Of a stretch of 64,000 nt of DNA, positions 1 to 64,000 are shown piece by piece; position 1 is the first letter of the stretch, and every line of letters begins with the position of its first letter. Below the pieces are notes generated by a model. It searched no databases. It worked only from the letters and a program-made list of their open reading frames with translations, and was not told where the DNA came from. The stretch is from Nannocystis bainbridge (GTDB lineage Bacteria > Myxococcota_A > Polyangia > Nannocystales > Nannocystaceae), in NCBI RefSeq assembly GCF_028368995.1, contig NZ_JAQNDL010000001.1, positions 4,416,001 through 4,480,000 of the forward strand, in the 5' to 3' direction. The translations under genes were made by a program, and so were the position numbers.

Positions 1-2884
1 GGGCGACGCGCGGGCGACCTTCGAGGTCCACCTCGTCGACTGCGCGCGCTGCCAGCAGCAGCTCCACGTGTTGATGCAGCTGCAGGTCGCGAGCGGGCCC
101 GAGGCGCCGGCCGCCGCGCCGCCGATCTCGCTGGCCGCGCGCAGACCACGGCGCTGGTGGGCCGCGGCGCCGGTGCTCGCCGCGGCCGCCGCGATCGCCC
201 TGTACCTGCGCGGGCCGGGCGGCGGGCCCGAGCTCGTGGATGTCCCCAAGGGCATGTCCGAAGGGTCAGCTTCACTCACGCTGACGCCGACGCGCGGCGT
301 CGAGGCCCGGCTCAGCTTCGGCCCGGCCGACGTCCACCGCGACTACGCCGTCACCCGCGCCGCCGGGCCGATCCAGGGTGAACCGATCCCGCTGAGCGAG
401 CTCTCGCGGCTCGAGCAGATCGGCGAGCTGCGCGGGCTCGCGGCCGCCCACGCGCTACGCGGCGAGCTCGCGCAAGCCCAGGCGGTGCTGCTGCGGCTCG
501 AGCCCTCGCCCGATCGCGACAGCGACCTCGCCGCGCTGGCGTTGATGCAGGCCCAGCCCGAGCCCGCGCTCGCGCTCGCCGACGCCGCGCTGGCGGTCGC
601 GCCGGAGCACTTGCAGGCGCGCTGGAACCGGGCCCTCGCGCTGCGCGACCTCGGCCTCTCGCGCGCCGCCGCGGACGCGCTCGAGCAGCTCGCGGCCGCC
701 GACACGCCGGCGTGGGGCGCCGAGGCACGGGCCCACGCCGCGGCGCTGCGGCGCGAGCCGGCCGCGCGCGAGCGGCTGTTCGCCGAGGTACAGGCGGCCG
801 GAGCGGCGTTGATCGATCACGGCGATCCGGTCCCCGAGGCCGCGATCCTCGGCGCGCCGTCGCTGGTGCGCCTCTACTTCTATGACGCCGTGCGCACCGC
901 CCCGACGCGCGCGCGCCTCGAGTCGTTGCTGCCGCTGGCCGAGCGGCTCGATCGGCTGGCCGGCGGGAATGTCCTTCAGGACATGCTGCAAAAGACAGCC
1001 AGGTCCGAGTTCGCCCGCCGCGGTCCGCTGGCCGAGCGCTACGCCGGGCTCGCGCTCGGTCGCGGCGGCGACGGGCCGGCGCTGGTCGCCGCGGCGCGAG
1101 CGGCCGGGCAACTCGACATCGCTCTCGGGGCGATGGTCCATGCCGGGCAAGCGCGCGCCGATCTGTCCGGCTTCACCAAGCTGGCCGAAAGTACAGGTGA
1201 CCCATGGCTGCGCATGCTGGCCGCGCAGGAGCGGGCCGGCGCGCAGCTCGACGCCGGTGATTACGCGCCCGCCGAGGCGACGCTGACCTCCGCGCAGGCG
1301 CTGTGCGGCCCCGGCCTTGGCTATCGCTGCGCGCGGCTCGAGCTGGCCCACGCCGAGCTGCTGGCGCTGATGCACCGCCTGCCCGAGGCCGCCGCTCCGC
1401 TCGAGGCCGCCGCGCGGCGGGTGACGCAGGACCAGCACTGGGGCGCCGAGACGACCTCCTTGCAGCTGCGGGCCGAGGTCGCTCGCCTGCGCGGCGCCTT
1501 CGGCCTCGCGCGGGCGATCACCGGCGAGACCCTGCTGCGCCTGCCCGAGGCCGAGGTGGCGCGCTGCCGGGCCGAGCGTCACGCGCGGGACGTGCTCGCC
1601 GGTCTTGCGATCGTCGCGCTCGACGTCGCCGGGGCGCGACGCGAGCTGCAGGCCGCGCCGGATTGCCAGCAGCCGCCGTCGCTGGCGCGGCTGTTCGTCC
1701 AGGCCGACCTGACGCGCATGAGCGGCGATGCGCGCGACGTCGAGGCCGTGCTCGTCGGTTTGCAGGCGGTGCGGGCGGGCGGCCTGATGCCCGGCGAGGC
1801 CGCGCTCGCCGATCATATCGAGGGCCGCGCGCGCATCGGCGGCGAGCCCGAGGCCGGCCGCGCCCTGCTGCGCCAGGCGATCGCCGCCGCGCGCGAGCTG
1901 CCGCGCAGCGACCCGCACGCGCTCAAGGCGGTGTCGTTCAGCTACGCCTCGCTGGTGCTCGACGCGGCCGCGCGGGGCGATCACGGCGCGGCGCTGCAAC
2001 TGCTCGCAGAAGAGGTCGGTGCGCCCGCGCCGACATCCTGCGCGCTCGGCCTCGCCGACGATCACGAGCGCAGCTACAGCGTCGCGCTCGGACCCGCCGG
2101 CCCGGCGATCGGCGCTCTCGTCACCCGCGAAGCCCCGGCCCTCGCCGACGAGGCGCGGGTGCCCGAGGCTGCGATCGCGGCGCTGCGGGCCTGCCCCGAG
2201 GTCGCGGTGTTCGCCCGCCCGCCGCTGGCCGGTCGCCCCGGCTTGCTGCCGCCCGAGATCGCCTGGTCGTACCGCGTCGGTCACCAGACTGTTAAGACAT
2301 TGCCAAAAAAGCATGTCCCATCGGACATGCGACTGGTCGTCGCCGACGCGGTCGCGCCGACCTCGCTCGGCCTGCCGCGCCTGTCCCCGTGGACAGGTGA
2401 GATCGACGCCGGCACGCGGGCGCTGACCGGCCCCGCGGCGACGCCGACGCGGGTGCTGCAGGCGCTGCCCGAGGCCGGTGAGATCGAGTTTCACGTCCAC
2501 GGTCTCGTCGACCTCGGAGTGTCGGACGCCTCCTTCCTGGCCCTGACGCCCGAGGCCGACGGCCGCCACGCATTGACGGCCGGGCAGATCCGCGGCGTCG
2601 CCCTGCCGGCGCGGCCGGTCGTGATCCTCGGGGCCTGCCACGCCGGTCAGGTCGCGCCGTACTTGCACGAGGCGTGGAGCTTGCCGAGCGCGTTCCTCGA
2701 GGCCGGCGCGCGGGTCGTCATCGCCTCGCCGGCCCCCGTCGACGACCGCGAGGCCGGCCCGTTCTTCGCCGCCGTGCGAGCGCGGATCCGCGGCGGCGCC
2801 TCGCCGGCGGTCGCCGTCCGCGACGAACGGGTCCAGCGCGGCAGCGCGGCCGACTGGGCCGCCCACGTGCTCGTCTTCGAGTAG
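1..2884 (+). CDS. zf-HC2 (ZAS anti-sigma) + TM + TPR-like + C-terminal CHAT (caspase-like) protease; 5' end outside window
   Basis: Frame is open from nt 2 and reads GDARATFEVHLVDCARC (HxxxCxxC), followed by a hydrophobic helix WWAAAPVLAAAAAIALYL, TPR-like ARWNRALALRDLGL, and CHAT catalytic motifs FHVHG and VILGACHAG, then LPSAFLEAGARVVIAS and terminal WAAHVLVF. Confidence 0.85.
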   Translation, partial: GDARATFEVHLVDCARCQQQLHVLMQLQVASGPEAPAAAPPISLAARRPRRWWAAAPVLAAAAAIALYLRGPGGGPELVDVPKGMSEGSASLTLTPTRGVEARLSFGPADVHRDYAVTRAAGPIQGEPIPLSELSRLEQIGELRGLAAAHALRGELAQAQAVLLRLEPSPDRDSDLAALALMQAQPEPALALADAALAVAPEHLQARWNRALALRDLGLSRAAADALEQLAAADTPAWGAEARAHAAALRREPAARERLFAEVQAAGAALIDHGDPVPEAAILGAPSLVRLYFYDAVRTAPTRARLESLLPLAERLDRLAGGNVLQDMLQKTARSEFARRGPLAERYAGLALGRGGDGPALVAAARAAGQLDIALGAMVHAGQARADLSGFTKLAESTGDPWLRMLAAQERAGAQLDAGDYAPAEATLTSAQALCGPGLGYRCARLELAHAELLALMHRLPEAAAPLEAAARRVTQDQHWGAETTSLQLRAEVARLRGAFGLARAITGETLLRLPEAEVARCRAERHARDVLAGLAIVALDVAGARRELQAAPDCQQPPSLARLFVQADLTRMSGDARDVEAVLVGLQAVRAGGLMPGEAALADHIEGRARIGGEPEAGRALLRQAIAAARELPRSDPHALKAVSFSYASLVLDAAARGDHGAALQLLAEEVGAPAPTSCALGLADDHERSYSVALGPAGPAIGALVTREAPALADEARVPEAAIAALRACPEVAVFARPPLAGRPGLLPPEIAWSYRVGHQTVKTLPKKHVPSDMRLVVADAVAPTSLGLPRLSPWTGEIDAGTRALTGPAATPTRVLQALPEAGEIEFHVHGLVDLGVSDASFLALTPEADGRHALTAGQIRGVALPARPVVILGACHAGQVAPYLHEAWSLPSAFLEAGARVVIASPAPVDDREAGPFFAAVRARIRGGASPAVAVRDERVQRGSAADWAAHVLVFE

Positions 2885-2937
2885 ACGGCCGGCCCGCTGC
2901 GATCCTCCTCCCGCGGAGCGGTGGTACCGTCGCCTCC

Positions 2938-3855
2938 ATGTTCGACCCAGCCGCGTGGCTGCAAGCGACCCGACCGCTGGCCCAGGTCAACCTCGTCGTC
3001 CCGCTGTGGCTCGGGCAGGCGCTGGCCTTCGCGTACGCCGGCGCGTTCTCGCTGCCGACCCTGTACGCCCTGCACATGTTCGCCGCGCTGCTGCTGCTGG
3101 TGATCGTCTTCAGCAACGACTACGCCGACCGCGACAGCGACGCCGCCAACCGCACCTACAACGAGTTCTCCGGCGGCTCGCGGGTGCTGCCCGACGGCCG
3201 TCTGCGCCCCGGCGAGCTGCGCGACGCCGCCTGGCTGGCGCTCGTCGGCCTGTCCGGACTCTCGCTCTACCTGGCCTTGTGGACAGCTCGTCCGTGGACC
3301 CCGGCGTTCGTGGCCGTCGCCGCGCTGCTGGTGTGGGCCTACAACTTCGCCCCGCTGCGCCTCTCGTACCGCGGCGGCGGCGAGGTCGTGCAGGGCCTCG
3401 GCACCGGGGTGGTGCTGCCGCTGCTCGGCTTCTACGTCCAGGCCGGCTCGCTCGCGGCGTTCCCGTGGCTCGCGCTGGCCCCGCTGTTCCTGATCGGCGT
3501 GGTCGGCAACATCCTCACCTCGCTGCCGGATGTCCCTTCGGACAGGGCCACCGACAAGCGCAGCTACGCGGTCCGCCGCGGGCAGTGGGCCGCGCGCCGT
3601 CACAGCCTCGAACTGTTGGTGATGGCCGCGCTGATGGGCGGCCTGGTCGTGCCCGGCCTCGGGATCGTCGGCGTGGCCCTGCTGGCCGCCCCCGCGCTGG
3701 CGCTGGTGGCCGCCGCCGTGCCCCTGCTCGGCAGCGCCGACGCCGAGCAGCGCGACGAGTGCCGCCGCTTCATCCTCCTCACCGCCGGCGCCGGTCACCT
3801 GCAGTGCGTGCTGTGGAGCCTCGCGCTCGTGGTGGTCGGCCTGCTGCGGGCATGA
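2938..3855 (+). CDS. UbiA/MenA-family prenyltransferase
   Basis: NDYADRDSD Asp-rich motif, FSGGSRVL, YNFAPLRLSYRGGGE, DVPSDRATDKRS; polytopic membrane protein. ATG at 2938 follows a TACCGT -10-like hexamer. Confidence 0.85.
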   Translation: MFDPAAWLQATRPLAQVNLVVPLWLGQALAFAYAGAFSLPTLYALHMFAALLLLVIVFSNDYADRDSDAANRTYNEFSGGSRVLPDGRLRPGELRDAAWLALVGLSGLSLYLALWTARPWTPAFVAVAALLVWAYNFAPLRLSYRGGGEVVQGLGTGVVLPLLGFYVQAGSLAAFPWLALAPLFLIGVVGNILTSLPDVPSDRATDKRSYAVRRGQWAARRHSLELLVMAALMGGLVVPGLGIVGVALLAAPALALVAAAVPLLGSADAEQRDECRRFILLTAGAGHLQCVLWSLALVVVGLLRA

Positions 3856-3880
3856 ACCTCGACGCGCGCGCCTTCGTTCA

Positions 3881-3960
3881 TGATATGTCTGAACAGACAT
3901 GTCCCATGGGGAATGCCGTAAAGGACATGTCGTAAAGACAATGTCCCCGAGGACATAAAC
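3881..3960. repeat. Array of six phased 14-bp palindromic units (TGTCC-N4-GGACA family)
   Basis: Junction 10-mers start at 3881 (tgatatgtct), 3895 (agacatgtcc), 3909 (gggaatgccg), 3923 (ggacatgtcg), 3937 (gacaatgtcc) and 3951 (ggacataaac). Confidence 0.85.
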
Positions 3961-4098
3961 GAAGACCGCAGCCGCGGTCGGCAGATCTGCGGCGCTCCGA
4001 CGCCCGTGCCGCGGGCCAGCAGCAGCCTCAGCGCTCGCAGCGGAGGACCGGGTCGCCCGGTGTCCGTGGATCACGCCCCGGTGACGCGTCCTCGCGCC

Positions 4099-7272
<3,174 letters not shown>

Positions 7273-11309: not shown

Positions 11310-12281
11310 ATGGAGTACACCCACGCCATGGCCGAGCCAGCCGCCGACTCGCGCGCCTCCGCGTCGCTCGTGGCCCTGTGGGTCGCGGTGCTGCTCGGGG
11401 TGGCCGGGGTCGCGATCCTCGCCGCCGGCTTCGTCGCCCCGCTGCTGGCCGGCTCGGACGAGCCCTTCCTCGAGGGACATGTCCCGAAGAACTCGCAGCT
11501 GTATCAGCGCTCGACCCCGCGGCCGCACGGCGTGCTGCACCTGGCCGGCTCGGGCAGCAACATCCCGCTGACGCGCGCCCTCGCCGACGCCTTCGTGGTG
11601 CGCGGCCACGACGCCCACATCGTCGTGTTCGAGAGCATCGGCTCGACGGGCGGGGTGATGGCCGTCTACGACGACGTCGTCGACCTCGGGCTCATCTCGC
11701 GCCCGCTGAGCGACCGCGAGCTGCACATCGGCGTCGACGCGATCCCCTACGCCCGCGTCCCCGTGGTCGTCGCCGTCAACCTGTCCGTCCCCGACACCGC
11801 GATCTCCACCACCGAGCTCGCCGACATCTTCGCCGGTCGCAAGACCCGCTGGTCCGACGGCGCGCCGATCACCGTGCTGCAGCGCGAGCGCGGCGACTCC
11901 GGCCACGCCGCCGTCGCCGCCGCCCTGCCGGCCTTCGCCGCCGCCGACGAGGCCGCCTACCGCGAGCACCGCTGGCGCGTCATCGTCCACGACCGCGCGA
12001 TGCAGGAGGCGCTTGCGATCACCCCCGGCGCGATCGGCCTGCTCGACGTCGGCGTCATCAGCCTCCAGCGCCTGCCCCTCCGCGCGCTCGAGCTCGACGG
12101 CTACGCCCCCAGCGAGGCCAGCGTGCAATCGGGCCGCTACCCCTTCTCAAAGGACCTCGCCTTCGCCGGCCTCGAGGCCCCGACCGGCCTGGCCGCCGAG
12201 TTCATCCGCTTCGCCCGCTCCGAAGAGGGCATCGCCCTGATGAAGGCCCACGGCTACATCCCGCTGCCGGAGATCCAATGA
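11310..12281 (+). CDS. Membrane-anchored PstS-like (type 2 periplasmic binding) protein
   Basis: LAGSGSN, SIGSTGG, DLGLISRPL, IFAGRKTRW, RERGDSG, PGAIG, SGRYP; N-terminal TM helix; starts immediately after the receptor stop codon. Confidence 0.8.
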   Translation: MEYTHAMAEPAADSRASASLVALWVAVLLGVAGVAILAAGFVAPLLAGSDEPFLEGHVPKNSQLYQRSTPRPHGVLHLAGSGSNIPLTRALADAFVVRGHDAHIVVFESIGSTGGVMAVYDDVVDLGLISRPLSDRELHIGVDAIPYARVPVVVAVNLSVPDTAISTTELADIFAGRKTRWSDGAPITVLQRERGDSGHAAVAAALPAFAAADEAAYREHRWRVIVHDRAMQEALAITPGAIGLLDVGVISLQRLPLRALELDGYAPSEASVQSGRYPFSKDLAFAGLEAPTGLAAEFIRFARSEEGIALMKAHGYIPLPEIQ

Positions 12282-12301
12282 CCCTCCGCGCAGGTTCGAA
12301 G

Positions 12302-12367
12302 GGACATGTTCTCGTCGCCATGTCCGATGGGGCATGCTCTCACGGACATGTCCTTCGAAGCATGATG
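12302..12367. repeat. Array of five phased 14-bp palindromic units
   Basis: CATG cores at 12305, 12319, 12333, 12347 and 12361. Confidence 0.9.
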
Positions 12368-12386
12368 CACGACCAGCGAGGCGCGC

Positions 12387-13754
12387 ATGTCTGAGAGGCC
12401 AGCGCCCGAGGGCCACCTCCGCTCGAGCAAGGTCGGTCTGCGCCGCTATCTTTCGGCGCGCATGGTGCCGCTGGTGGTGCTCTTGCTGGTGCTGGTCTCG
12501 GCCTCGGCGCCGCTGGCCTACGCCACCCTGCAGGCTCGCGGGCTGCGCTCGCAGGCGCGGGCGACCGCCGTCCAGGCGGCCGACGCGATCGCCCGTGAGG
12601 TCCAGGAGCGGCCGGTGCTGTGGCGCTACGACGCCGGCAAGCTGCTGGCCCATCTGCGCGCCTACGTCGACAACGCGGGGGCCGCTCGCATCGAGATCGC
12701 CGATCGATCGGGAGTGCGGATCCCCCTCGACCCCGAGCCGATCGCCAGCCCCGCCGCCGCTGGTCCGCTCGCCTGGGAGGCCGCGCCGATCATCCTCAAC
12801 GACGAGGTCGTCGGCCACGCGTGGGTCGCCGTCAGCCTGGCCGAGGCCCGCAACGCCGCGCTGCTGCTGCTCGGACCGTTCGGCCTGCTCGGCGTCGGGC
12901 TCGCCGGTCTGCTCTACTTCATCCCGCTGGGCGCGATCACCCGCGCCGAGCGGCGCATCGAGCAGAGCCAGGCCGCGCTCGCCCGCTTCAACCAGACGCT
13001 CGAGCAACAGGTCGCCGAGCGCTCGTCGCAGCTCGGCGAGGCTTACGAGCAGCTGCGCCAAAAAGAGGGCCGGCTGCGCGAGCTGTCGGCCCGCGCCGTG
13101 CTGCTCCAGGAGGCCGAGCGGCGCGTCATCGCCCGCGAGCTGCACGACTCGGCCGGCCAGGCGCTCACGGCGATCCGCATCAACGTGCAGCTGATGGTCG
13201 AGCTGGCCGAGCCCGACAGCAAGACCGCCAAGATGGCCGCGCGCACCCTGACGATCGTCGACGCGACGCTCGAGGAGATCCGTCGCGCCGTCAGCATGTT
13301 GGGCCCGGCGATCCTCGACGACGTCGGCCTGGTCGCCGCGATCGAGCGGCTGTGCGACGACTTCGAGCGCGAGGACCTCGAGATCTGGCGGGAGCTCGAG
13401 GTGCCTGACGGCGGGCTGTCCGCCGCGCTCGAGAGCGTGTGCTACCGGGTGACCCAGGAGGCGCTGACGAACGCCGCGCGCCACGCCGCAGCCAGCGAGT
13501 TGCGGGTGGTCCTGAGGGTCGAGCCCGCGCACATCGTGCTGGAGGTCCGGGACAACGGCCGGGGGTTTGTCCCCGGCGAGCGCGGCGAGGGGCGTGGCGG
13601 TCGAGGGCTCGTCGGCATGCGCGAGCGCGTCGAGCTGCTCGGCGGCAACCTCCGCATCGACACCTCGACGGGAGCCGGCACTGCCATCCGCGTCGAGCTG
13701 CCGCGGCGGGCTTTGAGCGACGACGGCGACGACTCGGCCGTGGTCGTCGCGTGA
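12387..13754 (+). CDS. Sensor histidine kinase, NarX/HisKA_3 type
   Basis: Two TM helices; ERRVIARELHDSAGQ H-box, QEALTNAARHA, DNGRGF, GLVGMRERV. Confidence 0.95.
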   Translation: MSERPAPEGHLRSSKVGLRRYLSARMVPLVVLLLVLVSASAPLAYATLQARGLRSQARATAVQAADAIAREVQERPVLWRYDAGKLLAHLRAYVDNAGAARIEIADRSGVRIPLDPEPIASPAAAGPLAWEAAPIILNDEVVGHAWVAVSLAEARNAALLLLGPFGLLGVGLAGLLYFIPLGAITRAERRIEQSQAALARFNQTLEQQVAERSSQLGEAYEQLRQKEGRLRELSARAVLLQEAERRVIARELHDSAGQALTAIRINVQLMVELAEPDSKTAKMAARTLTIVDATLEEIRRAVSMLGPAILDDVGLVAAIERLCDDFEREDLEIWRELEVPDGGLSAALESVCYRVTQEALTNAARHAAASELRVVLRVEPAHIVLEVRDNGRGFVPGERGEGRGGRGLVGMRERVELLGGNLRIDTSTGAGTAIRVELPRRALSDDGDDSAVVVA

Positions 13755-14591: not shown

Positions 14592-15902
14592 ATGCGAAAT
14601 TTAGCCCTTTGCACCGCCCTGATGGCGCTGACGGCCTGTCCGGCCGACGACCCGAACACCACCGATTCGCCGACCAGCGACCCGACGACCGACGGGACCG
14701 CGTCCACGGACGGGACCGCGACGACCGACGGGACCGACGCGACCTCGACGACCGACGAGCCGACCTCGACGACCGACACGCCGACCTCGACGACCGACGA
14801 GCCGACCAGCACGACCGATCCGGGCACCACCACCGAGAGCGCCTGCGACGGCCTCGACATCCCGGCGATCGACGAGTCGGGTTGTGAGCCGCTCGCCACC
14901 GACTACCAGCCGCGCACCAACAATTCGGCCGACGACGAGTGGCCCGCGTGCGTGTCCGACACGGGCCCGTACACCCTCGTCGACAACCCGCCGAGCACCA
15001 TCGCCCGCATCGTCGCCTACGAGAACATCGCCGACCTGCTGTGGCGCAAGGCCGACCCGACGCCCGCCGACTTCACCGCCGCGCGCAGCGAGTACGTGCT
15101 GCCCGAGGGCCTCGAGTCGCGGCTCGTCCGCCGCGAGGACCTGCACTTCCCGCCGATCCCCGAGGCCGAGTGGGACCCGCAGGTCGACGCCGACAAGCAG
15201 TGCACCGTCGAGGCGCTGGCCACCAAGTACGCCGAGCGCTGCGTCGGCCCGGCGGCGATGAAGCCGCTGGTCGACGAGGCGTTCGCCGCCGGTCAGGCCG
15301 GCGAGGGCGACGCCAAGATCCACGCGGCGCGGATCCACGGCGGCCTGCTCTGGTTCCTCTACCTCTCCGTGTACAAGGAGGCCAACACCTGCGCCACGGT
15401 CGCGCCGAAGGACTGCGACTCGGCCTGGGCCTACTACACCGGCGGCGAGGCGATCGACGCCCCGATCGGCATGGCCGCCGAGGTCGACGCGATCAGCGGC
15501 AACGCCCACGAGCGGATCCACGACGGCATCCTGGCCACCCGCTGCTGGCGTGACATCGCCCAGGACGGCGGCATGTACCCGCTGCTCGAGACCCTGCCCG
15601 ACGACCAGCAGGAGCTGTTCGCGCAGGGCTGGGAGCAGCTCGACCAGGGCCTCCACCGCGGCTACGCGGTGATCGTCCGCGACCACATGCAGCAGTACGT
15701 CGACGCCTCCTGCAGCAGCGCCGACACCCAGGCCCACTGGGCGTTCCTGCAGGTCGCCGGCCCCGTGCTCAACCGCGAGGCCCAGGATCGCAACCCCGCC
15801 GAGGCCGGCAAGCTGGCCGCGCTGTGGACCACCGACGCCCCGGGCCCCGACGAGGTCACCGACGCGATCTTCGCCCTCGACGCGATCTTCCCCTGCCCGT
15901 AA
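14592..15902 (+). CDS. Lipoprotein with Thr/Asp-rich linker and Cys-containing globular domain
   Basis: Lipobox LTAC, repeats (TDGT)n and (PTSTTDE)n, strong GC3 codon bias; function unknown. Confidence 0.8.
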   Translation: MRNLALCTALMALTACPADDPNTTDSPTSDPTTDGTASTDGTATTDGTDATSTTDEPTSTTDTPTSTTDEPTSTTDPGTTTESACDGLDIPAIDESGCEPLATDYQPRTNNSADDEWPACVSDTGPYTLVDNPPSTIARIVAYENIADLLWRKADPTPADFTAARSEYVLPEGLESRLVRREDLHFPPIPEAEWDPQVDADKQCTVEALATKYAERCVGPAAMKPLVDEAFAAGQAGEGDAKIHAARIHGGLLWFLYLSVYKEANTCATVAPKDCDSAWAYYTGGEAIDAPIGMAAEVDAISGNAHERIHDGILATRCWRDIAQDGGMYPLLETLPDDQQELFAQGWEQLDQGLHRGYAVIVRDHMQQYVDASCSSADTQAHWAFLQVAGPVLNREAQDRNPAEAGKLAALWTTDAPGPDEVTDAIFALDAIFPCP

Positions 15903-15954
15903 GGGCATGCTCCGAAGGGCATGCTCTGAAGGGCATGTCCTTCAAGACATATGA
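15903..15954. repeat. Array of four phased 14-bp units directly after the stop codon
   Basis: gggcatgctc-cgaa-gggcatgctc-tgaa-gggcatgtcc-ttca-agacatatga; a further pair lies at 16042-16065. Confidence 0.9.
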
Positions 15955-16108
15955 TGAGGGCCGAGCGCCGCGCGCTCGGCCCTCTCTTCGCGAGCTGGCT
16001 CTGTCCTCGAGACTCAGCGCGCGATCAGCCTCGGCACGCGATGACATGTCCGAAGAGACATCCGAGCGGCCTCTCCGGCGCGAGCGAACGTCACGCCATC
16101 CGGAACGA

Positions 16109-16152: not shown

Positions 16153-16224
16153 TAGGCGGAACAGGGTTCGAACCTGCGACCCGCGCCTTGTAAGGGCGCC
16201 GCTCTACCGCTGAGCTATCCGCCT
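16153..16224 (-). tRNA. tRNA-Val (TAC), CCA not encoded
   Basis: Reverse complement AGGCGGATAGCTCAGCGGTAGAGCGGCGCCCTTACAAGGCGCGGGTCGCAGGTTCGAACCCTGTTCCGCCTA folds as a cloverleaf with anticodon loop CTTACAA and T-loop GTTCGAA. Confidence 0.96.
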
Positions 16225-22643: not shown

Positions 22644-22984
22644 ACCCCGACGCCGCCAAGGCATCGCTCCTCCCTCCGGGAGGCGGTGCCGTTTGTCGCC
22701 GGTAAAATTCCTCAGCTATCCACACGCGGCACCGATCCCCACCCCCGGGACCGGTGCCGTCGTCGCGACTGGAGATCGCTTCAAAGGCGATCTCCGAGGC
22801 CTTTCAACGACGGATGCGAAGCGATCTCCGCGGTGCATCGCGGGCGCGCCAGAGGCCCGAACAGTCGCGCGAGCGTGCCCGCGAAGAGGCCGCTCTCGCG
22901 CGAGCACGAGCATGGATGAGGCGATCTCTGTCGGAGAAAGTCGAGTGGCGCGAGCGATACGAGCCGCTCGAGCGAGAGCGATAC

Positions 22985-23262
22985 GAGCCGCGCAAGCGAG
23001 CTGTGCTCACGTGAAGAACGACCGCGCGAGCCGATGCTCCCGTCGGCCCCAGTGCGAACGTCGGCGCTCCGCTCGAGACGAGCCGCGCAAGCGAGCTGTG
23101 CTCGCGTGAAGAACGACCGCGCGAGCCGACGCTCCCGTCGGCCCAGTGCGAACGTCGGCGCTCAGCTCGAGACGAGCCGCGCAAGCGAGCTGTACCGCGT
23201 GACGAACGACCGCAAGCCGACGCTCCGTCGGCTCACGGGCGAACGTCGGCGCTCAGCTCTTG
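22985..23262. repeat. Three tandem copies of a 94-95-bp unit with an internal hairpin
   Basis: Copies begin gagccgcgcaagcgagctgt at 22985, 23080 and 23174; each contains gccgaY-gctcc(c)-gtcggc. Confidence 0.9.
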
Positions 23263-26618: not shown

Positions 26619-26644
26619 CTCTTAAAAATCGAAGCTGTACTTTG

Positions 26645-26703
26645 GGACATGTCCGAAGAGCCATCGGTTTGCTGCTTCTTCGGACATGTTCGATCGGCCA
26701 GGC
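26645..26703. repeat. Two pairs of 14-bp palindromic units
   Basis: ggacatgtcc-gaag-agccatc (cores 26648/26662) and ggacatgttc-gatc-ggccagg (cores 26685/26699). Confidence 0.7.
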
Positions 26704-30375: not shown

Positions 30376-30532
30376 AGAGAGCGCCTCGGGGCGGGGAGCA
30401 TGCTGCGGGAGCATGCCCGCAAGAACATGCAGGGCACGTCACGGAGCATGCCCGATAGGGCATGTCGTGGAGAGCATGCCCGATGGAACATGTAGCGAAG
30501 GGCATGTCCGATGCGACATGCCCTTCGGGTCA
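30356..30532. repeat. Longest array of 14-bp palindromic units
   Basis: CATG cores at 30447, 30461, 30475, 30489, 30503 and 30517 (exact 14-bp period), plus 30399, 30412, 30426 and tgtcc-gaag-agaca at 30356. Confidence 0.92.
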
Positions 30533-59170: not shown

Positions 59171-59367
59171 GCCGTCGCTCAGACGAGGCGGCCGCGCACG
59201 GCGGCCGCGCACGGACCGGCCTCTGCGGGGCGACGCAGGGCCGGTCTTTCTCGTGTCCGCGGCCCCGCGACCGCAGGTCGCAGCGGGGGCGCTCACGATC
59301 GCCGCTCGCCCGCCGGCTCGCGGAGGGACGCGCGCGTGCGGAGGAAATTGCTACTCTCCGCGCGACC

Positions 59368-60120
59368 ATGACTCACCGCGCTTCGCTCGTCCTCTCGCTC
59401 CTCGTGTTCGCCTGTCAAAATCCCGCGGGGCCGCCGGCGGCCAAGACGGGGCCGGAGGTCAAGGCGACCGAGCCGCCGGCGAAGAGCGACCCGCACGCGG
59501 TGAACCCCCACGCCGCCGATCCGCACGCGGGCAACCCCCACGCGGCCGGGCCGCACGGGGCGGAGCCGGCGGCGGAGACGTCGCGGCCGGCGCGTGAGCC
59601 GGTCAATCCGCACGAGGTGACGCCGAGCGGCAAGACGCGCGAAGAGGTGGTGCCCGGGCTCAACTACAAGGTGCCGGAGGAGTGGACGCGCAAGCCGGGC
59701 TCGTCGGCGATGCGCCTGGCCGAGTTCGTGCTGCCGGGGCCGGGCGGCGACGCGGAGCTGGCGGTGTACCGCTTCGCCGGCGGTGGCGGCGACGCGAAGT
59801 CGAACGTGCACCGCTGGCGCACGCAGTTCGCCAAGTCGGACGGGTCGCCGCTCGGCGACAGCGACGGCGAGGTGCAGGAGGTGACCCGCGAGGCGCTGAA
59901 GCTGACGCTGGTCGACCTGAAGGGGACGTACATCGCCCAGGTGACGCCGGGGGCGTCGGAGCGCTACGCCGACCCGAACTACCGCATGCTGGCGGTGATC
60001 GTCGAGGGCGCGGGCGACCCGTACTTCTTCAAGGCGGTCGGGCCGGAGACGACGCTGAACGTGTGGAAGCCGACCTTCACGTCGTTCGCCGACGCGATCG
60101 AGGTCATCACGGCGAAGTGA
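59368..60120 (+). CDS. Hypothetical lipoprotein with (DPHA)n His-rich linker
   Basis: VFAC lipobox; DPHAVNPHAADPHAGNPHA; MRLAEF...GGD..SNV.RW..QF...YFFKAVGP. Confidence 0.8.
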   Translation: MTHRASLVLSLLVFACQNPAGPPAAKTGPEVKATEPPAKSDPHAVNPHAADPHAGNPHAAGPHGAEPAAETSRPAREPVNPHEVTPSGKTREEVVPGLNYKVPEEWTRKPGSSAMRLAEFVLPGPGGDAELAVYRFAGGGGDAKSNVHRWRTQFAKSDGSPLGDSDGEVQEVTREALKLTLVDLKGTYIAQVTPGASERYADPNYRMLAVIVEGAGDPYFFKAVGPETTLNVWKPTFTSFADAIEVITAK

Positions 60121-60122
60121 GC

Positions 60123-60174
60123 TGTCCTTCGGGACAGGAGATCATGAGGACATGTCGTGAAGGACATGTCCTCG
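60123..60174. repeat. 14-bp palindromic units at a convergent junction
   Basis: tgtcc-ttcg-ggaca at 60123; CATG cores at 60151 and 60165. Confidence 0.85.
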
Positions 60175-60184
60175 GGTGCAGGCT

Positions 60185-60781
60185 TCAGGCCTGGGCCCAC
60201 AGGGCGGTGAAGGCGGCGACCTCGGCGTCGAGCAGGATGTCGAGGTCGGGGCCGTCGTGCATGCAGAGCAGGCGCTTGCGGCGGACGTCGAGGACGGCGA
60301 TCGCGGCGTCGCGCGGGGTCTGCTCGCCGAGGACGCGGGCCATCAGTCGGGCGGCGATGTCCGAGAGGGTGTGCGGCAGCGGGTCCTCTTTGAAGTAGAG
60401 CTTGATGACGTGCGGGCGCCCTTCGATCTCGAGGCCGAGCTCGGGGTTGACGCTGATCGGGAGGCCCTGAAGGCTGCCGATCTGCCAGCCGGGCTCGAAC
60501 CACTCGATGCGCCGCTGACCCCACCAGCCGAGATACGCCTCGGCGATGTTGTCGAAGCGACCGCCAGCGTTGGCCCGGGTGAGGTGGTCACGCAGCTCCC
60601 ACTTGGTGGTGGAGGCGGCGTGGGTGCGGATGATGGCCTCGCGCACGGGCCGGTAGAGGTCGCCGGTGGCGGTGTAGGGGCCGCGGTGCTTGATGTCGCG
60701 CACCTTGGCCAGCTTGCCGGTCATGCTGGGCCGGCCGACGAAATCGACGAAGTCGGTCAACGAGATGCGAGTCGAGTCCAT
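60185..60781 (-). CDS. Hypothetical cytoplasmic protein
   Basis: 198 aa, GAGGGAG Shine-Dalgarno, globular composition. Confidence 0.8.
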   Translation of the reverse strand: MDSTRISLTDFVDFVGRPSMTGKLAKVRDIKHRGPYTATGDLYRPVREAIIRTHAASTTKWELRDHLTRANAGGRFDNIAEAYLGWWGQRRIEWFEPGWQIGSLQGLPISVNPELGLEIEGRPHVIKLYFKEDPLPHTLSDIAARLMARVLGEQTPRDAAIAVLDVRRKRLLCMHDGPDLDILLDAEVAAFTALWAQA

Positions 60782-61263
60782 ACGCTCCCTCAGTCGAAGA
60801 AGAACGTAGGCGATGGCTTTGATCCGCTGCGGATCAAGCCTGCGAGGCCGTGGAACGGCGAATTCAGGGCGTCTGCGCGATCACCCGGGCGCTGATCCGG
60901 ATCAGATCAGGGGGCCGTGAATAGCGCGGCCCAAAAAATGCGCGGTGAACGGTGAGCGCGGCGAAGGTGCGAAGGCGACGACGCGGGCAGGCGAGCGGCC
61001 GCGAGGCCCGTCCTACCGAGGTCGCGGCGGCGCATCCTCTTCAGCGGTCGTAGAGGTGGCTGCGAGCGAGCGGCGCGCCGAGGAGTCGCCCTCGGGCGCG
61101 AGGCAGGTCGCCGGCGTTGCTGTCATCCTCGCGGGGCGGCGGTCGCTGACGCCGTCGCGTGGGTGCTGGCTTGGCTGTCATCCGCGAGGCGCGTGGCATG
61201 CGAGGTCGTCGATTCGACGTCCTCAAGCGCTACCGGTGCGAGGTAGCGATGCGCTCGAGGGGC

Positions 61264-61704
61264 TCAGGCGCAGCGGGCACACTGGCCCTTGATGAGGATC
61301 TCGGAGATGTTGCCGACGACCGACTTGTTCGAGCCCGGGGCGGGGGTGAGCTTGACGCGCACGGTCGAGAGGCAGGTGACCTCGCCGCACTGGGTGCAGA
61401 CGAAGTGCGGGTGCTCGGGGTGATGGGCCTCGCGGGCGCGCAGCTCGAAGCGCCAGACGTTGTCGCCGAGGTTGATGCGGTTGAGCAGGCCGGCGCGGGT
61501 GAGGTCGATGAGGTTGCGGTAGAGGGTGGCGGCGTCGAAGCCGTGGTGGGCGAGGGCCTCGACGAGCTCGCCGTGGCTGGAGGGGGTGCCGGTGCCGTGG
61601 AGGTGCTCGAGGACGGCGATCCGGGGGCCGGTGACGCGGAGGCCGGCCTCGCGAATGGCGTCGCGCAGGAGGTCGAGCGAGGCGCGGGCTTTGGGGCGCG
61701 GCAT
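61264..61704 (-). CDS. Fur-family transcriptional regulator
   Basis: GLRVTGPRIAVL, ATLYRNL, HHPEHPHFVCTQCG, GQCARC. Confidence 0.93.
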   Translation of the reverse strand: MPRPKARASLDLLRDAIREAGLRVTGPRIAVLEHLHGTGTPSSHGELVEALAHHGFDAATLYRNLIDLTRAGLLNRINLGDNVWRFELRAREAHHPEHPHFVCTQCGEVTCLSTVRVKLTPAPGSNKSVVGNISEILIKGQCARCA

Positions 61705-61809
61705 GCTGCAAGAGGATAGCACCGGCGGCCCAACCGCAGCAGCAGCCCGGGGCGGGCTCACGCGGGCCGGCCGCAGCGGAGGTCGTGGCTGTGGTATGCG
61801 GGGCTCGCC

Positions 61810-62376
61810 ATGACGATCAAGTCTGACCGCTGGATCCGCCAGATGTCGCAGGAGCACCGGATGATCGAGCCGTTCGAGCCGTACCAGGTGCGCGAGACGG
61901 ACGGTCGGCGGGTGGTGTCGTTCGGCACTTCGAGCTACGGCTACGATGTCCGCTGCGCGCCCGAGTTCAAGATCTTCACGAACATCAACTCGGCGGTGGT
62001 CGACCCGAAGGACTTCCAGCGGAACAGCTTCGTCGACTTCACGGGCGACATGTGCATCATCCCGCCCAACTCGTTCGCGCTGGCCCGCACGGTCGAGTAC
62101 TTCCGGATCCCCCGCGACGTGCTCGTGATCTGCCTCGGCAAGTCGACGTACGCGCGCTGCGGGATCATCGTCAACGTGACGCCGCTCGAGCCCGAGTGGG
62201 AGGGCCACGTGACGCTCGAGTTCTCCAACACGACGCCGCTGCCGGCCCGGATCTACGCCCACGAAGGGGTGGCGCAGATGCTGTTCTTCCAGTCCGACGA
62301 GGCGTGCGAGACGTCGTATGCGGATCGCGGCGGGAAGTATCAGGGCCAGCGCGGGGTGACGCTGCCGCAGGCGTGA
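61810..62376 (+). CDS. dcd: dCTP deaminase
   Basis: [52 protein letters not shown]. Confidence 0.97.
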
Positions 62377-62385
62377 AGGGCCGGC

Positions 62386-62784
62386 TCAGACGGGCGTCTT
62401 CGGGCTCGACGGCGCGACGGGAGCGCTCGGGGCCTCGCTCGGGGACGTCGGCGGGCGGTTCGAGGTGGTGCCGGGCGAGGCGGGTTTGCCCATGAGGCAA
62501 CCACCGCCCGCGAGGGCGCCGAACGCGAGCGCGGCGGCGGTGGCGAGGCGCGGCAGGAGGCCGACCCGGTCCTTGAAGACGATGTCGCCCCGGGCGTCGT
62601 GGACGTAGCGAACGCAGGGCTGGTCGCCGGCGGCGAGCAAGGCCTCGGCCTCTCCCTCGCTCATGGTCGAGAGGTCGGTGACATCCTTGCGGCACAGGCG
62701 ACAGAACCGCGCGCGGCCGTCACCGTCCATCCGCTCCCAATCCGCGCTGCAGGGTTCGACGATCCGGAGGCTGTCGCTTCGCAT
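62386..62784 (-). CDS. Small Cys-rich protein with C-terminal hydrophobic helix
   Basis: PCSADWERM...RFCRLCRKDVTDLSTMS...CVRY, then AAALAFGALAGGGCLMG. Confidence 0.75.
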   Translation of the reverse strand: MRSDSLRIVEPCSADWERMDGDGRARFCRLCRKDVTDLSTMSEGEAEALLAAGDQPCVRYVHDARGDIVFKDRVGLLPRLATAAALAFGALAGGGCLMGKPASPGTTSNRPPTSPSEAPSAPVAPSSPKTPV

Positions 62785-62927
62785 GCAGGGGCCGAACGCG
62801 CGCGACGTGGGTCCGCTTTCAGGCCGGTGAGTGCGCGGAGTCCTGGTGGCGTCCCGGCCGAGGCTCGTTGCCGCGCTCACGGGCGCAGGCCGCATCCGAA
62901 GATGGGGGCGAACCGCGGCTCGGGTGA

Positions 62928-63086
62928 AGACATGTCTTCGAGGACATGCCACGTGCGCGACCCGGCGGAAGGATGGGACGCGGCCCATGGCTCGCGTGAC
63001 GACAGGTCTTCGAGGGCGTCTTCGTTGCGGGCGCAAGCCGCCACGAATAGATGTGTCTTTGAGGGCATGTCCTGAGGGACATGCCG
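62928..63086. repeat. Two clusters of 14-bp palindromic units
   Basis: Cores at 62931 and 62945, and at 63052, 63066 and 63080. Confidence 0.85.
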
Positions 63087-63093
63087 TTCGCGG

Positions 63094-64000
63094 TCAGCGG
63101 ACGCTGAAGCGGGTCGACTCGAGGCGGACGGCCTGGCGGGGGTCGGCGGGGCGGGCGAGGACCTCGTGGTCGCCCGGTTCGGCGGCGATCTTCAGCTTGT
63201 AGGGCCAGTCGCTGCGGCCGACCTCGTGGCCGTCGACGAGGAAGGCGAGCGGGCCGAAATCGACGCCGCTGCCGTCGAGCTCGGCGCGGACCTCGATGGT
63301 CTGGGCGGCGCGGCGCTGGTCGAGGGCGAACACGGTGCCGGGGGCCGGGGCGACGACGCGCAGGGTCGGGATCGCGGCCGGGCGGTCGTCGCAGCCGGGC
63401 ACGCGGGCGCGCGGGAGCCAGGGGCGGCCGAACAGGTCAGGGGTGTCGCCGCCGGCTGTCCTGAAGGACAGCCACTCGTCGTAGGCGGCCGGGAACACCA
63501 CGGCGGTGACGGAAGCCTTCGCATCGCAGCGCAGGCCGGCGGGGGCGCTGCGGTCGGGGCGGACGTGGACGTGGTAACCGCAGCTGTCCTCGGGGACATG
63601 TCCTCGGGAGAACTTGCGGTGGACGCGTTCGTCGCAGGCGGGGCCGACGGGGGCGCCGGACAGCGCGCAGACCTCCACGTCGACCAGCAGCTCGGGCTCC
63701 CACAGCGGCCGGCGCTGCGGGACGTCGGCCATGGCGCGGCGCATGACGTCGGCGAACAGCGGGCCGGCCCCGGAGGCGCCGGTGAGGCGAGCGGTCGGGG
63801 AGCCGTCGGCGTTGCCGAGCCAGACGGCGACGGTGCGCTCGCGGGTGTAGCCGACGGTCCAGGTGTCGCGGTAGCCGGACGAGGTGCCGGTCTTGACGGC
63901 GACGGGGTAGGCCAGCGCGAACGGGCCGCGGCCGTGGAGGCCACGCACGCGCGCGAGCGGGTCGGAGAGCGCCTCGGTGACGACGGCGGCGACCTCGGGC
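63094..64000 (-). CDS. pbpC: Penicillin-binding protein 1C-like, C-terminal part (truncated by window edge)
   Basis: VAVKTGTSSGYRDTWTVG, VWLGNADG, TGASGAGPL, VCALSG, C-terminal Ig-like domain (FLVDG...PGDHEV). Confidence 0.8.
   Translation of the reverse strand, partial: PEVAAVVTEALSDPLARVRGLHGRGPFALAYPVAVKTGTSSGYRDTWTVGYTRERTVAVWLGNADGSPTARLTGASGAGPLFADVMRRAMADVPQRRPLWEPELLVDVEVCALSGAPVGPACDERVHRKFSRGHVPEDSCGYHVHVRPDRSAPAGLRCDAKASVTAVVFPAAYDEWLSFRTAGGDTPDLFGRPWLPRARVPGCDDRPAAIPTLRVVAPAPGTVFALDQRRAAQTIEVRAELDGSGVDFGPLAFLVDGHEVGRSDWPYKLKIAAEPGDHEVLARPADPRQAVRLESTRFSVR

What the first reader, a model, noticed from the sequence alone, without database searches (positions are those of the whole stretch)
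241..63612. Chromosome-wide 14-bp palindrome code, TGTCC-N4-GGACA, chained with an exact 14-bp period
Seen: degenerate copies of TGTCC-N4-GGACA are joined head-to-tail so that junctions read RRRCATGYYY. Arrays with exact 14-bp spacing: 3881-3960 (6 units); cores 12305/19/33/47/61; 15906/20/34/48; 30447/61/75/89/503/517; 33669/83/97/711; 60151/65; 62931/45; 63052/66/80. Further clusters lie at 16042, 26645, 50886 and 55893-56202. Neighbouring units differ in sequence, especially the N4 spacer, while the phase and CA|TG are kept. That argues against recent slippage duplication and for selection on spacing. By my count 6 of 10 convergent gene junctions carry an array, and I saw none in the rRNA genes. 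Inference: binding sites for an abundant dimeric protein that loads cooperatively, since 14 bp is about 1.33 turns and successive dimers would wind about 120 degrees around the helix. This would be a nucleoid-organising, roadblock or segregation system analogous in role to matS/MatP, SBS/SlmA, NBS/Noc or ram/RacA, but it matches no consensus I recognise. A REP-like element that acts as ssDNA/RNA hairpins is the alternative.
Basis: partly seen in the sequence, partly recalled or inferred. Interest (0 to 1): 0.9.

Follow-up and report, generated by a model that had tools for sequence, protein, structure and literature searches.

The report
Genome-wide 14-bp palindrome lattice in Nannocystis
A 14-base palindromic DNA word occurs about ten thousand times in this myxobacterial genome, tiled in exact register just after genes and scattered inside genes, and it looks like the docking site of an unknown DNA-binding protein rather than an ordinary repeat.

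Summary
TGTCC-N4-GGACA occurs 1987 times in the 11.05-Mb genome, against 3 for the reversed control word. CATG-to-CATG distances peak at 14, 28, 42, 56 and 70 bp. A weight matrix finds 10,088 units against 632 in a shuffle.

- **Position.** Arrays of 3 or more units are almost all intergenic. They sit just after stop codons, mostly between convergent genes, and avoid divergent (promoter) spacers.
About 37% of units lie inside real genes. That is 1009 exact copies against 30-35 after codon shuffling. Their synonymous positions evolve slower than background.
- **Sequence, not pairing.** The two half-sites vary independently, with no base-pair covariation.
- **Relatives and known families.** No RAYT transposase, Vsr or ComP receptor accompanies the word, and Rfam has no match. 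It is enriched in 23 of 23 genomes of three sister genera and 0 of 50 others in the family.

Best reading: a clade-specific word read as duplex DNA by a symmetric protein that can tile every 14 bp. The protein and its function remain unknown. A REP-like hairpin role and a HIP1/DUS-like drive remain live rivals.

The parts
3886..3955 (.). Array of 5 in-phase 14-bp units (3 score 11 bits or more: 3886, 3914, 3942) in the convergent spacer 3856-4098
   Evidence: The orthologous spacer in 4 other genomes of the genus also holds units, but of different sequence and number.
12321..12362 (.). 3-unit array 40 nt after the stop of gene 11310-12281, in a tandem spacer; a further single unit at 12388-12401
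   Evidence: Orthologous spacers hold 2, 5 and 11 units.
15894..15949 (.). 4-unit array that starts inside the last codons of gene 14622-15902. The TAA stop lies in the loop of the first unit. A terminator-like GC hairpin with a T-rich tail follows at about 15958-15990.
16047..16060 (.). Single unit in the same convergent spacer, next to the tRNA gene at 16153-16224
26636..26700 (.). Two 2-unit arrays (26636-26663, 26673-26700) in a 91-bp tandem spacer
30414..30532 (.). Single unit at 30414, then 6 in-phase units at 30449-30532 (5 score 11 bits or more), in the convergent spacer 30376-30529
   Evidence: RNA fold z = -6.05 (+ strand) and -6.43 (- strand). Orthologous spacers hold 2, 4 and 2 units.
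33657..33712 (.). 4-unit array that fills the 69-bp convergent spacer 33655-33723
50886..50913 (.). 2-unit array in a divergent spacer (the rare class), with the unit count kept in 3 other genomes (2, 2, 2)
55893..56202 (.). Cluster of 6 units embedded in a 68-70-bp composite tandem repeat, in a convergent spacer
60123..60166 (.). Two units (60123, 60153) in the 64-bp convergent spacer 60121-60184
62933..63081 (.). Single unit at 62933 and a 2-unit array at 63054-63081, in a tandem spacer
3531..3544 (.). Exact unit inside the UbiA prenyltransferase gene (2938-3855, residue 198, within Pfam domain residues 20-278). It is spelled by codons GAT GTC CCT TCG GAC AGG.
   Evidence: The same 14-mer is present in 3 of 4 usable orthologues and differs by one loop base in the fourth.
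34824..34837 (.). Exact unit inside the 872-residue gene 33724-36342 (- strand)
53406..53433 (.). 2-unit array inside the 2-oxoacid dehydrogenase E2 gene, in the linker between the lipoyl and E3-binding domains
63457..63598 (.). Two exact units (63457, 63585) inside gene 63094-65412 (- strand)
241..2395 (.). Units at 241-268, 970-997, 1182, 2314 and 2382 within the long predicted ORF that ends at 2884. This gene call is uncertain around 2290-2330.

Best explanation
The unit T-G-y-C-C-N4-G-G-r-C-A, with preferred flanks R-C-A/C and G/T-G-Y, is a clade-specific highly iterated DNA word.

INFERRED MECHANISM
- Its two half-sites are read as sequence in duplex DNA by a two-fold symmetric (dimeric) protein.
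- Each unit's preferred flanks are supplied by a neighbouring unit. Sites can therefore tile head-to-tail with zero spacer, which gives a lattice with dyad axes every 7 bp and a 14-bp period.
- Single sites are tolerated and kept inside genes, at about 0.4 per kb.
- Dense tilings accumulate where they do no harm to promoters or reading frames: just after stop codons and above all between convergent genes.
- There a protein-coated array would most plausibly act as a barrier or anchor at the end of transcription units. That could be a roadblock to read-through, a topological barrier, or a nucleoid contact point.

SHOWN: abundance, lattice, positions, independence of half-sites, conservation, phyletic range.

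For: 1. Sequence, not pairing, is constrained.
- Within-unit Watson-Crick observed/expected is 0.986, 1.049 and 1.007 at the three variable stem pairs of 3208 intergenic array units.
- In 1009 coding copies, pairs 3/12 and 0/15 do not covary (p = 0.078 and 0.54).

2. The lattice is strict.
- Half-site spacings occur only at 4, 18 (TGTCC..GGACA), 0, 14, 28 (GGACA..TGTCC) and 9, 23 (direct).
- CATG distance 14 bp has 3736 pairs against 72 at 13 bp and 262 at 15 bp.

3. Copies inside real genes.
- 1009 exact copies in coding sequence against 30-35 in 5 codon shuffles.
- They lie in Pfam-confirmed genes, are spread evenly along genes, and prefer two reading frames: 547, 382 and 80 copies in the three frames.

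4. DNA-level constraint.
- Units were defined in a third species and divergence measured between two others.
- Core third-codon positions differ at 126 of 1664 (7.6%), against 13.7% background and 27.1% (118 of 436) at loop third positions.
- 29 of 35, 34 of 40 and 34 of 39 coding units are kept in three other species.

5. Symmetry towards transcription.
- Loops and their reverse complements are about equally common.
- G.U-compatible variants number 998 on the sense strand against 849 on the antisense strand.

6. Position.
- Of 501 arrays of 3 or more units with a classed spacer, 300 are convergent, 183 tandem and 18 divergent.
- 55% of convergent spacers carry at least one unit, against 24% of tandem and 21% of divergent spacers.
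- In tandem spacers such arrays sit a median 24 nt after the stop, and 87% lie closer to the stop than to the next start.

7. Occupancy of a spacer is conserved between species: 78 both, 121 neither, 7 discordant.

8. The word is enriched in 23 of 23 genomes of three genera and 0 of 50 genomes of 14 other genera in the family. That is the pattern expected of a lineage-specific reader.
Against: - No binding protein was identified. Genes flanked by arrays form no relevant family, and promoter-proximal arrays point to no DNA-binding gene.
- Arrays can also fold into long hairpins: z = -2.2 to -6.4 in 6 folds. A hairpin role at 3' ends is therefore not excluded.
- A minority of arrays show inverted duplication around a central unit. 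Lag-2 arm complementarity is 1.09-1.33 times expectation, and loops are reverse complements in 5.3% of pairs against 1.2%.
- There is a small sense-strand excess of G.U-compatible variants, 54% of 1847.
- Array-bearing spacers are in flux: median identity 0.55 against 0.83, and length ratio 1.47 against 1.02. Selfish or slippage-prone DNA would also look like this.
- Array sizes decay steadily, with no optimum that would suggest cooperative assemblies of a set size.
- Constraint at synonymous sites is equally predicted by a molecular drive with no cellular function.
- Gene calls come from my own crude caller. The species comparisons cover 150 kb and four related genomes that are not independent.
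Confidence: 0.45

Rival explanations
1. REP/BIME-like element. The units matter as hairpins in RNA or single-stranded DNA. Tilings fold into long GC-rich stems right after stop codons. These stems stabilise or terminate transcripts in both directions at convergent genes. Copies inside genes would be by-products.
For: - Arrays sit just after stops and between convergent genes and avoid promoter spacers.
- Arrays fold far better than shuffles: z = -4.6 to -6.4 in 5 of 6 folds and -2.2 in the sixth.
- Spacer occupancy is conserved while content turns over, as recalled for REP clusters.
- Some units sit in larger composite repeats, at window 55903-56136 and in the G001 orthologue of 12282-12461.
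- There is a small sense-strand excess of G.U-compatible variants.
Against: - Stem positions do not covary. Only about 47%, 67% and 59% of array units pair at the three variable stem positions.
- 3753 of 10,088 units lie inside coding sequence, with 30-fold enrichment and synonymous-site constraint. A 3'-end hairpin role does not explain this.
- The zero-spacer 14-bp register is unnecessary for strings of hairpins.
- No Y1/RAYT transposase was found in the genome, while controls rang in 6 of 14 genomes.
- There is no master copy.
- Only 54 of 1218 arrays have a T4 run alongside.
- Where a canonical terminator is present, arrays lie before it 13 times and after it 14 times.
Confidence: 0.2
2. 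Self-propagating word without a cellular role for the arrays, as proposed for uptake sequences (USS/DUS) or HIP1. A sequence-biased process steadily enriches the word wherever it is tolerated. Candidates are preferential uptake of DNA carrying the word followed by recombination, or biased repair or gene conversion. Arrays would simply be the densest tolerated packing.
For: - Density is about 0.9 units per kb, as recalled for USS/DUS.
- The word is present in both genes and spacers, and rarer in strongly codon-biased genes: 0.67 falling to 0.13 per kb.
- Density dips in low-GC bins that look foreign.
- Copies are conserved.
- Range is clade-limited, with sister genera holding only singletons at roughly 10-fold lower density.
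- The HIP1 precedent is a hyper-abundant, conserved palindrome of unknown function (PMC5861425, abstract read).
Against: - No ComP_DUS-type receptor scored over the cut-off in 0 of 73 genomes. That search had no positive control.
- Vsr is present in only 1 of 23 word-rich genomes and not in this one, while controls rang. Vsr-type patch repair is therefore not the driver.
- Spacing is over-dispersed (CV 1.38-1.56), not even.
- The drive does not explain the 9-fold difference between convergent and divergent spacers (8.95 against 1.04 units per kb), beyond saying that promoters are intolerant.
- It does not explain why the same spacers stay occupied across species.
Confidence: 0.25
3. Simple tandem-repeat slippage (a VNTR) or a compositional or codon-usage artefact.
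For: A few arrays are recent expansions. One is the 8-unit array on contig 3 with near-identical units. Another is window 15901-15937, with period 14 and 95% matches.
Against: - 96% of adjacent units differ in the loop.
- Most units (6075 of 7674 places) are singletons.
- Enrichment survives dinucleotide, codon-position and codon shuffles.
- The same word is enriched in 23 genomes of three genera.
Confidence: 0.01

Closest known systems
REP / BIME clusters (REPINs with RAYT transposases) of enterobacteria and pseudomonads (properties recalled; one preprint on REPIN-RAYT seen only in a search listing)
   Same: Short palindromic units clustered in spacers at the 3' ends of genes and between convergent genes. 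Hairpin-capable. Spacer occupancy is conserved while content is in flux. Units are sometimes embedded in larger mosaic repeats.
   Different: - The unit is 14 bp, not 20-40 bp.
- Units abut in an exact zero-spacer register.
- 37% of units lie inside genes.
- No Y1/RAYT gene was found.
- There is no master sequence and no stem covariation.
HIP1 (GCGATCGC) of cyanobacteria (PMC5861425, outline and abstract read; PMC4390886 and PMC13756078, listing abstracts only)
   Same: A hyper-abundant palindrome (15- to 300-fold), within and between ORFs. It is conserved between genomes beyond expectation, its function is unknown, and a role in nucleoid structure has been proposed.
   Different: - HIP1 is an uninterrupted 8-mer with no phased arrays and no reported 3'-end bias.
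- It has cognate methyltransferases. Here methylation is untested and no partner is known.
DNA uptake sequences (Neisseria DUS, Pasteurellaceae USS) (recalled, no paper read)
   Same: About one copy per kb. Found in genes and in spacers, where inverted pairs sit after genes. Clade-specific 'dialects'.
   Different: - Those words are asymmetric and do not form head-to-tail arrays.
- No ComP_DUS homologue was found.
- Spacing here is clustered.
Tandem operator boxes of ribbon-helix-helix repressors (MetJ met-boxes, omega heptads) (recalled)
   Same: Short boxes tiled head-to-tail with no spacer, so that adjacent dimers can touch. The lattice here has a dyad every 7 bp, like inverted heptads.
   Different: Those are a handful of boxes at a few promoters. 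Here there are about 10,000 units genome-wide, and they avoid promoter spacers.
Chromosome-organising palindromes: matS/MatP, NBS/Noc, SBS/SlmA, ram/RacA (recalled)
   Same: 13-16-bp palindromes bound by dimeric proteins at many chromosomal places.
   Different: - Those have tens of sites confined to chromosome regions.
- Here there are thousands on every contig, with no ori or ter domain, a bias to 3' ends, and tiling.
- The consensus differs.

Membership tests
REP/REPIN-RAYT | Strictly extragenic | tested here: not met
   3753 of 10,088 units lie in predicted coding sequence. There are 1009 exact copies against 30-35 in codon shuffles. Host genes were confirmed by Pfam.
REP/REPIN-RAYT | Cognate Y1 (RAYT) transposase gene in the genome | tested here: not met
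   PF01797 gave 0 matches in the genome (90.5% complete, 5 contigs). The same search rang in 6 of 14 control genomes.
REP/REPIN-RAYT | Located after genes or between convergent genes, in clusters | tested here: met
Highly iterated palindrome (HIP1-like) | Short palindrome hyper-abundant both within and between ORFs | tested here: met
Highly iterated palindrome (HIP1-like) | Sites conserved between genomes more than their surroundings | tested here: met
   Core third-codon positions differ at 7.6% against 13.7% background. Spacer occupancy is concordant in 199 of 206 spacer-species pairs.
Highly iterated palindrome (HIP1-like) | Cognate orphan methyltransferases that recognise sub-words | not testable with these tools
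   No methylome data. CATG outside units is near composition expectation (32,287 against 28,674).
DNA uptake sequence (DUS/USS) | Dedicated uptake receptor (ComP-type minor pilin) | tested here: inconclusive
   PF16732 scored over the cut-off in 0 of 73 genomes, but the control set also rang in 0 of 14, so there was no positive control.
DNA uptake sequence (DUS/USS) | Preferential uptake of DNA that carries the word | not testable with these tools
   Needs a transformation assay.
Intrinsic (Rho-independent) terminator | GC-rich hairpin followed by a U tract | tested here: not met
   54 of 1218 arrays have a T4 run within 14 nt. By a crude rule, canonical terminators are about as common in spacers with units as in spacers without (7-17%).
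Macrodomain or occlusion sites (matS, NBS, SBS, ram) | Sites confined to a chromosome region | tested here: not met
   Every full 100-kb bin holds 13-170 units, with no localised domain.
Structured RNA family | Match to a curated covariance model, or compensatory base changes | tested here: not met
   Rfam at gathering thresholds found only rRNA and tRNA in the window. There is no covariation.

The most novel reading that the evidence does not exclude
Nannocystis and two sister genera carry a dedicated protein-DNA lattice system. An abundant symmetric DNA-binding protein nucleates on about 10,000 14-bp sites and polymerises in register on the tilings after stop codons. This would mark about half of all convergent gene junctions as protein roadblocks or topological insulators. 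It would be a genome-wide, protein-based way of ending or insulating transcription units that is not known in bacteria. The constrained single sites inside genes would serve as nucleoid contact points.
Probability: 0.2. Interest if true: 0.9.

Novelty: new variant of a known kind. Interest (0 to 1): 0.74.

Why it matters
Hyper-abundant short genomic words (REP, HIP1, DUS/USS, Chi) have each opened a piece of chromosome biology. Several remain unexplained after decades.

This word combines features that are separate in the known cases:
- REP-like arrays at gene ends;
- HIP1/DUS-like constrained copies inside genes;
- an operator-like zero-spacer lattice.

It also comes with a clean phyletic contrast: 23 word-rich genomes against 50 word-free genomes in one family. 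That contrast makes the responsible gene findable by phylogenetic profiling. The organism is cultivable, so pull-downs, ChIP-seq, Term-seq and methylome sequencing are direct tests.

If a lattice-forming protein marks transcription-unit ends, that would be a new mode of genome organisation in bacteria. If the word is a drive, it would be the first uptake- or repair-type word described in Myxococcota, as far as my searches show.

Tried and rejected
LEADS THAT LED NOWHERE OR WERE REJECTED
- **RAYT/REP system.** PF01797 is absent from the genome. Rejected as a member.
- **Vsr-type patch repair as driver.** PF03852 is absent from this genome and present in only 1 of 23 word-rich genomes. Rejected.
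- **Neisseria-type DUS receptor.** PF16732 was not found in 73 genomes, but the search had no positive control. Left open.
- **Genes flanked on both sides by arrays.** 55 genes form no relevant family. The two small clusters are Cys-rich secreted proteins and Ser/Thr kinases. Rejected as a lead.
- **Arrays close to starts of small genes, looking for an autoregulated binder.** 55 cases gave no DNA-binding candidate by eye. Dropped.
- **A repeat of about 530 bp in G013 that ends near a unit**. Not followed.
- **Ori/ter localisation.** None seen.
- **Even spacing.** Not seen; CV is 1.38-1.56.
- **Arrays as substitutes for canonical terminators.** My crude terminator rule finds terminators in 7-17% of spacers whether or not units are present. 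The order of array and terminator is 13 to 14. Uninformative.
- **Expression data.** No RNA holder was listed for the window stretch.
- **Viral contigs.** 0 matches to a two-unit pattern.
- **Literature.** Four searches found no description of this word or of Nannocystis repeats. Supplementary files were not consulted.
- **Alignment caveat.** In the alignment the G007 row was in the wrong orientation. It was ignored, so 4 of 5 orthologues were usable.

Full report
**What is there**

The window is G000:C1:4416001-4480000. The genome is 11.05 Mb in 5 contigs with 71.5% G+C. The closest named records for a window gene are Nannocystis species.

- In the window, TGTCCNNNNGGACA with up to one mismatch occurs 34 times against 1.74 expected. 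0 of 100 shuffles reached that count.
- Genome-wide there are 1987 exact copies on all five contigs, against 3 for the reversed control word.
- CATG-to-CATG distances peak sharply at 14 bp (3736), 28 (2073), 42 (1586), 56 (751) and 70 (383). The neighbours are 72 at 13 bp and 262 at 15 bp. Five control 4-mers show no such peak.
- Half-site spacings occur only at values that fit one 14-bp lattice.

**The unit**

The consensus is T-G-y-C-C-N4-G-G-r-C-A. The preferred flanks are R-C-(A/C) on the left and (T/G)-G-Y on the right. These flanks appear both in spacers and inside genes. Copies of the junction palindrome GGRCATGYCC are themselves flanked by degenerate partner half-sites. The 14-bp unit is therefore the elementary element.

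I built a weight matrix from CATG-anchored units. It finds 10,088 units at 11 bits or more, against 632 in a shuffle that preserves codon-position composition. The matrix forces the TG and CA ends. That is a limitation.

**Where the units are**

I used my own codon-log-odds gene caller, which calls 8188 genes covering 84% of the genome.

| Location | Units | Source |
|---|---|---|
| Predicted coding sequence | 3753 of 10,088 | |
| Spacers (16% of the genome) | about 6030 | |

Places by size are 6075 singletons, 1079 doublets, 326 triplets, 115, 59, 19, then none of seven units and one of eight.

Of 520 arrays with 3 or more units, 482 are intergenic. Of the 501 with a classed spacer, 300 are convergent, 183 tandem and 18 divergent. 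The genome has 1505 convergent, 5175 tandem and 1503 divergent spacers.

| Spacer class | With at least 1 unit | With at least 2 | With at least 3 | Units per kb |
|---|---|---|---|---|
| Convergent | 55% | 46% | 34% | 8.95 |
| Tandem | 24% | 14% | 9% | 3.03 |
| Divergent | 21% | 8.6% | 3.7% | 1.04 |

In tandem spacers, the 173 arrays of 3 or more units lie a median 24 nt after the upstream stop. 87% are nearer the stop than the next start. At 15894 the first unit even holds the TAA stop in its loop.

No unit lies in the rRNA operon. Units occur along all contigs, at 13-170 per full 100-kb bin. Density dips in lower-GC bins, and there is no ori- or ter-limited domain.

**Copies inside genes are real and constrained**

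- Exact TGYCCN4GGRCA occurs 1009 times inside coding sequence, against 30-35 in five within-gene codon shuffles.
- The copies are spread evenly along genes and favour two reading frames: 547, 382 and 80 copies in the three frames.
- Pfam confirms the host genes in the window. These are a UbiA prenyltransferase (unit 3531 inside the domain), a TonB-dependent receptor, a transketolase C-terminal domain, an E2 acyltransferase and an aspartokinase.
- Unit 3531 is spelled GAT GTC CCT TCG GAC AGG. These are A/T-ending or otherwise unusual codons for a genome with GC3 above 0.9. Three of four usable orthologues have the identical 14-mer, and the fourth has one loop change.

I compared 150 kb of synteny with three other genomes of the genus.
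- 29 of 35, 34 of 40 and 34 of 39 coding units are kept.
- To avoid ascertainment bias, I defined units in one species and measured divergence between two others:

| Site class | Differences | Rate |
|---|---|---|
| Core third-codon positions | 126 of 1664 | 7.6% |
| Background third-codon positions | 53,240 of 388,738 | 13.7% |
| Loop third-codon positions | 118 of 436 | 27.1% |
| Core first and second positions | 156 of 2573 | 6.1% |
| Background first and second positions | 38,919 of 778,118 | 5.0% |

The comparisons share history, so they are indicative and not independent. Coding density falls from 0.67 to 0.13 units per kb as codon bias rises.

**Sequence or hairpin?**

Evidence against a hairpin as the selected property:
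- Within units, complementarity at the variable stem positions is what independent half-sites predict. Observed/expected is 0.986, 1.049 and 1.007 in 3208 array units. Pairs 3/12 and 0/15 give p = 0.078 and 0.54 in 1009 coding copies.
- Exact-match intergenic copies show a modest excess of C-G at pair 3/12, 122 against about 73 expected.
- Relative to the direction of transcription in tandem spacers, loops and their reverse complements are about equally common.
- G.U-compatible variants show only a 54:46 sense excess, 998 against 849.
- Only 54 of 1218 arrays have a T4 run alongside.
- Where my crude rule finds a canonical terminator, the array lies before it 13 times and after it 14 times. 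483 of 511 spacers had no such terminator.

Evidence that keeps a hairpin role open:
- Arrays fold far better than shuffles, with z from -2.2 to -6.4 in six folds. This follows from their construction.
- A minority look like inverted duplications around a central unit. Lag-2 loops are reverse complements in 5.3% of pairs against 1.2%, and arm complementarity is 1.09-1.33 times expectation.

**Dynamics**

- Adjacent units have identical loops in 4.0% of 2414 pairs against 1.2% for random pairs. There are 2257 distinct 14-mers among 4013 array units. There is no master copy, and recent slippage is the exception. One such exception is the 8-unit array on contig 3.
- Between species, occupancy of a spacer is conserved: 78 pairs occupied in both, 121 in neither, 7 discordant.
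- Occupied spacers are much less alike than empty ones. Median identity is 0.55 against 0.83, and length ratio 1.47 against 1.02.
- Some units next to genes are recognisably orthologous. They carry substitutions mainly in loops. Arrays therefore predate the species splits.

**Phyletic range**

| Group | Genomes enriched | Counts | Source |
|---|---|---|---|
| g1 (the window's genus), TGTCCN4GGACATG | 11 of 11 | 14-779 per strand | |
| g2 | 5 of 5 | 15-30 per strand | |
| g4 | 7 of 7 | 10-143 per strand | |
| 14 other genera of the family | 0 of 50 | 0-2 per strand | |
| 12 other families of the class | 0 of 12 genomes | 0-7 | |

In g4 the copies I looked at are singletons in genes and spacers. 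A strict two-unit pattern is found in 5 of 5 large genomes of the genus (9-49 copies) and 0 of 5 genomes of the sister genera. The word is therefore older than the genus. The tiling is a feature of the genus.

**Known systems tested**

- Rfam: nothing but rRNA and tRNA.
- RAYT (PF01797): none, with controls positive.
- Vsr: 1 of 23 word-rich genomes and not this one, with controls positive.
- ComP_DUS: none, but with no positive control.
- Viral contigs: no two-unit match.
- Literature: four searches gave no description of this word.

The nearest published analogue I read is HIP1. It is hyper-abundant, conserved within and between ORFs, and of unknown function (PMC5861425, abstract).

**Reading**

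The constraint acts on the letters of each half-site, in a strict lattice, on both strands alike, and inside genes as well as outside. That is what recognition of duplex DNA by a symmetric protein predicts. It is not what a structured RNA or a copy-and-paste element predicts.

The positional bias says that dense tilings are kept at the ends of transcription units and kept out of promoter spacers. I therefore favour a protein-read lattice with a barrier or anchoring role at gene ends (0.45). The rivals are a functionless drive of the HIP1/USS type (0.25) and a REP-like hairpin role (0.20). The first two share the inferred protein reader. They differ in whether the arrays do anything for the cell. 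The binding protein, cooperativity and function are all inferred, not shown.

**Limits**

- Gene calls are my own.
- The matrix is anchored on TG and CA.
- The species comparison covers 150 kb in four related genomes.
- There are no expression or methylation data.

Noticed in passing
window 22979-23259: A 95-bp unit repeated 3.0 times (92% matches, TRF score 453) in the convergent spacer 22644-23252. This is one of the 4 convergent junctions without any 14-bp unit, and its orthologous spacers in three species also have none.
   Followed up: no
window 55903-56136: A 68-70-bp composite tandem repeat (2.4-2.6 copies), each copy carrying a two-unit block. It is a mosaic arrangement reminiscent of BIME or NIME clusters.
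   Followed up: partly
G001 orthologue of window 12282-12461 and of 60121-60184 (printed): Modules of about 90-100 bp are repeated 4-5 times in tandem. Each holds one or two 14-bp units plus a GC-rich segment. The spacer expands from 180 to 647 bp and from 64 to 462 bp.
   Followed up: no
window 15958-15990: A canonical-looking terminator, a GC-rich hairpin followed by TCTCTTCG, is conserved in four species. The 14-bp array lies before it in two species and after it in the other two.
   Followed up: partly
window 15894-15907: The stop codon TAA of gene 14622-15902 sits in the loop of the first array unit (TGCCC GTAA GGGCA). The same arrangement begins the spacer in the other three species.
   Followed up: no
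G000 contig C1, about 4.4-4.5 Mb (includes the window) and contig C3 about 1.5 Mb: GC skew changes sign at both places. The window therefore lies near a replication origin or terminus. Unit density shows nothing special there.
   Followed up: no
window 2290-2330: An A/T-rich stretch and a unit whose right-hand CATG could supply a start codon lie inside the long ORF that my caller extends from before the window to 2884. That ORF may be two genes.
   Followed up: no
array junctions genome-wide: At unit junctions the two neighbouring variable positions are complementary less often than expected (observed/expected 0.885, p = 1.4e-7). GGACA|TGCCC and GGGCA|TGTCC are favoured over the fully symmetric junctions.
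   Followed up: no
L040 and L044 (G013): A repeat of about 530 bp, present at least twice in G013 (98-100% identity), ends about 30 bp beyond a 14-bp unit.
   Followed up: partly
coding units, 150-kb comparison: Third-codon positions in the 4-nt loop diverge about twice as fast as background third positions (27.1% against 13.7%). This may reflect the A/T-rich states there or real hypermutability of the loop.
   Followed up: no
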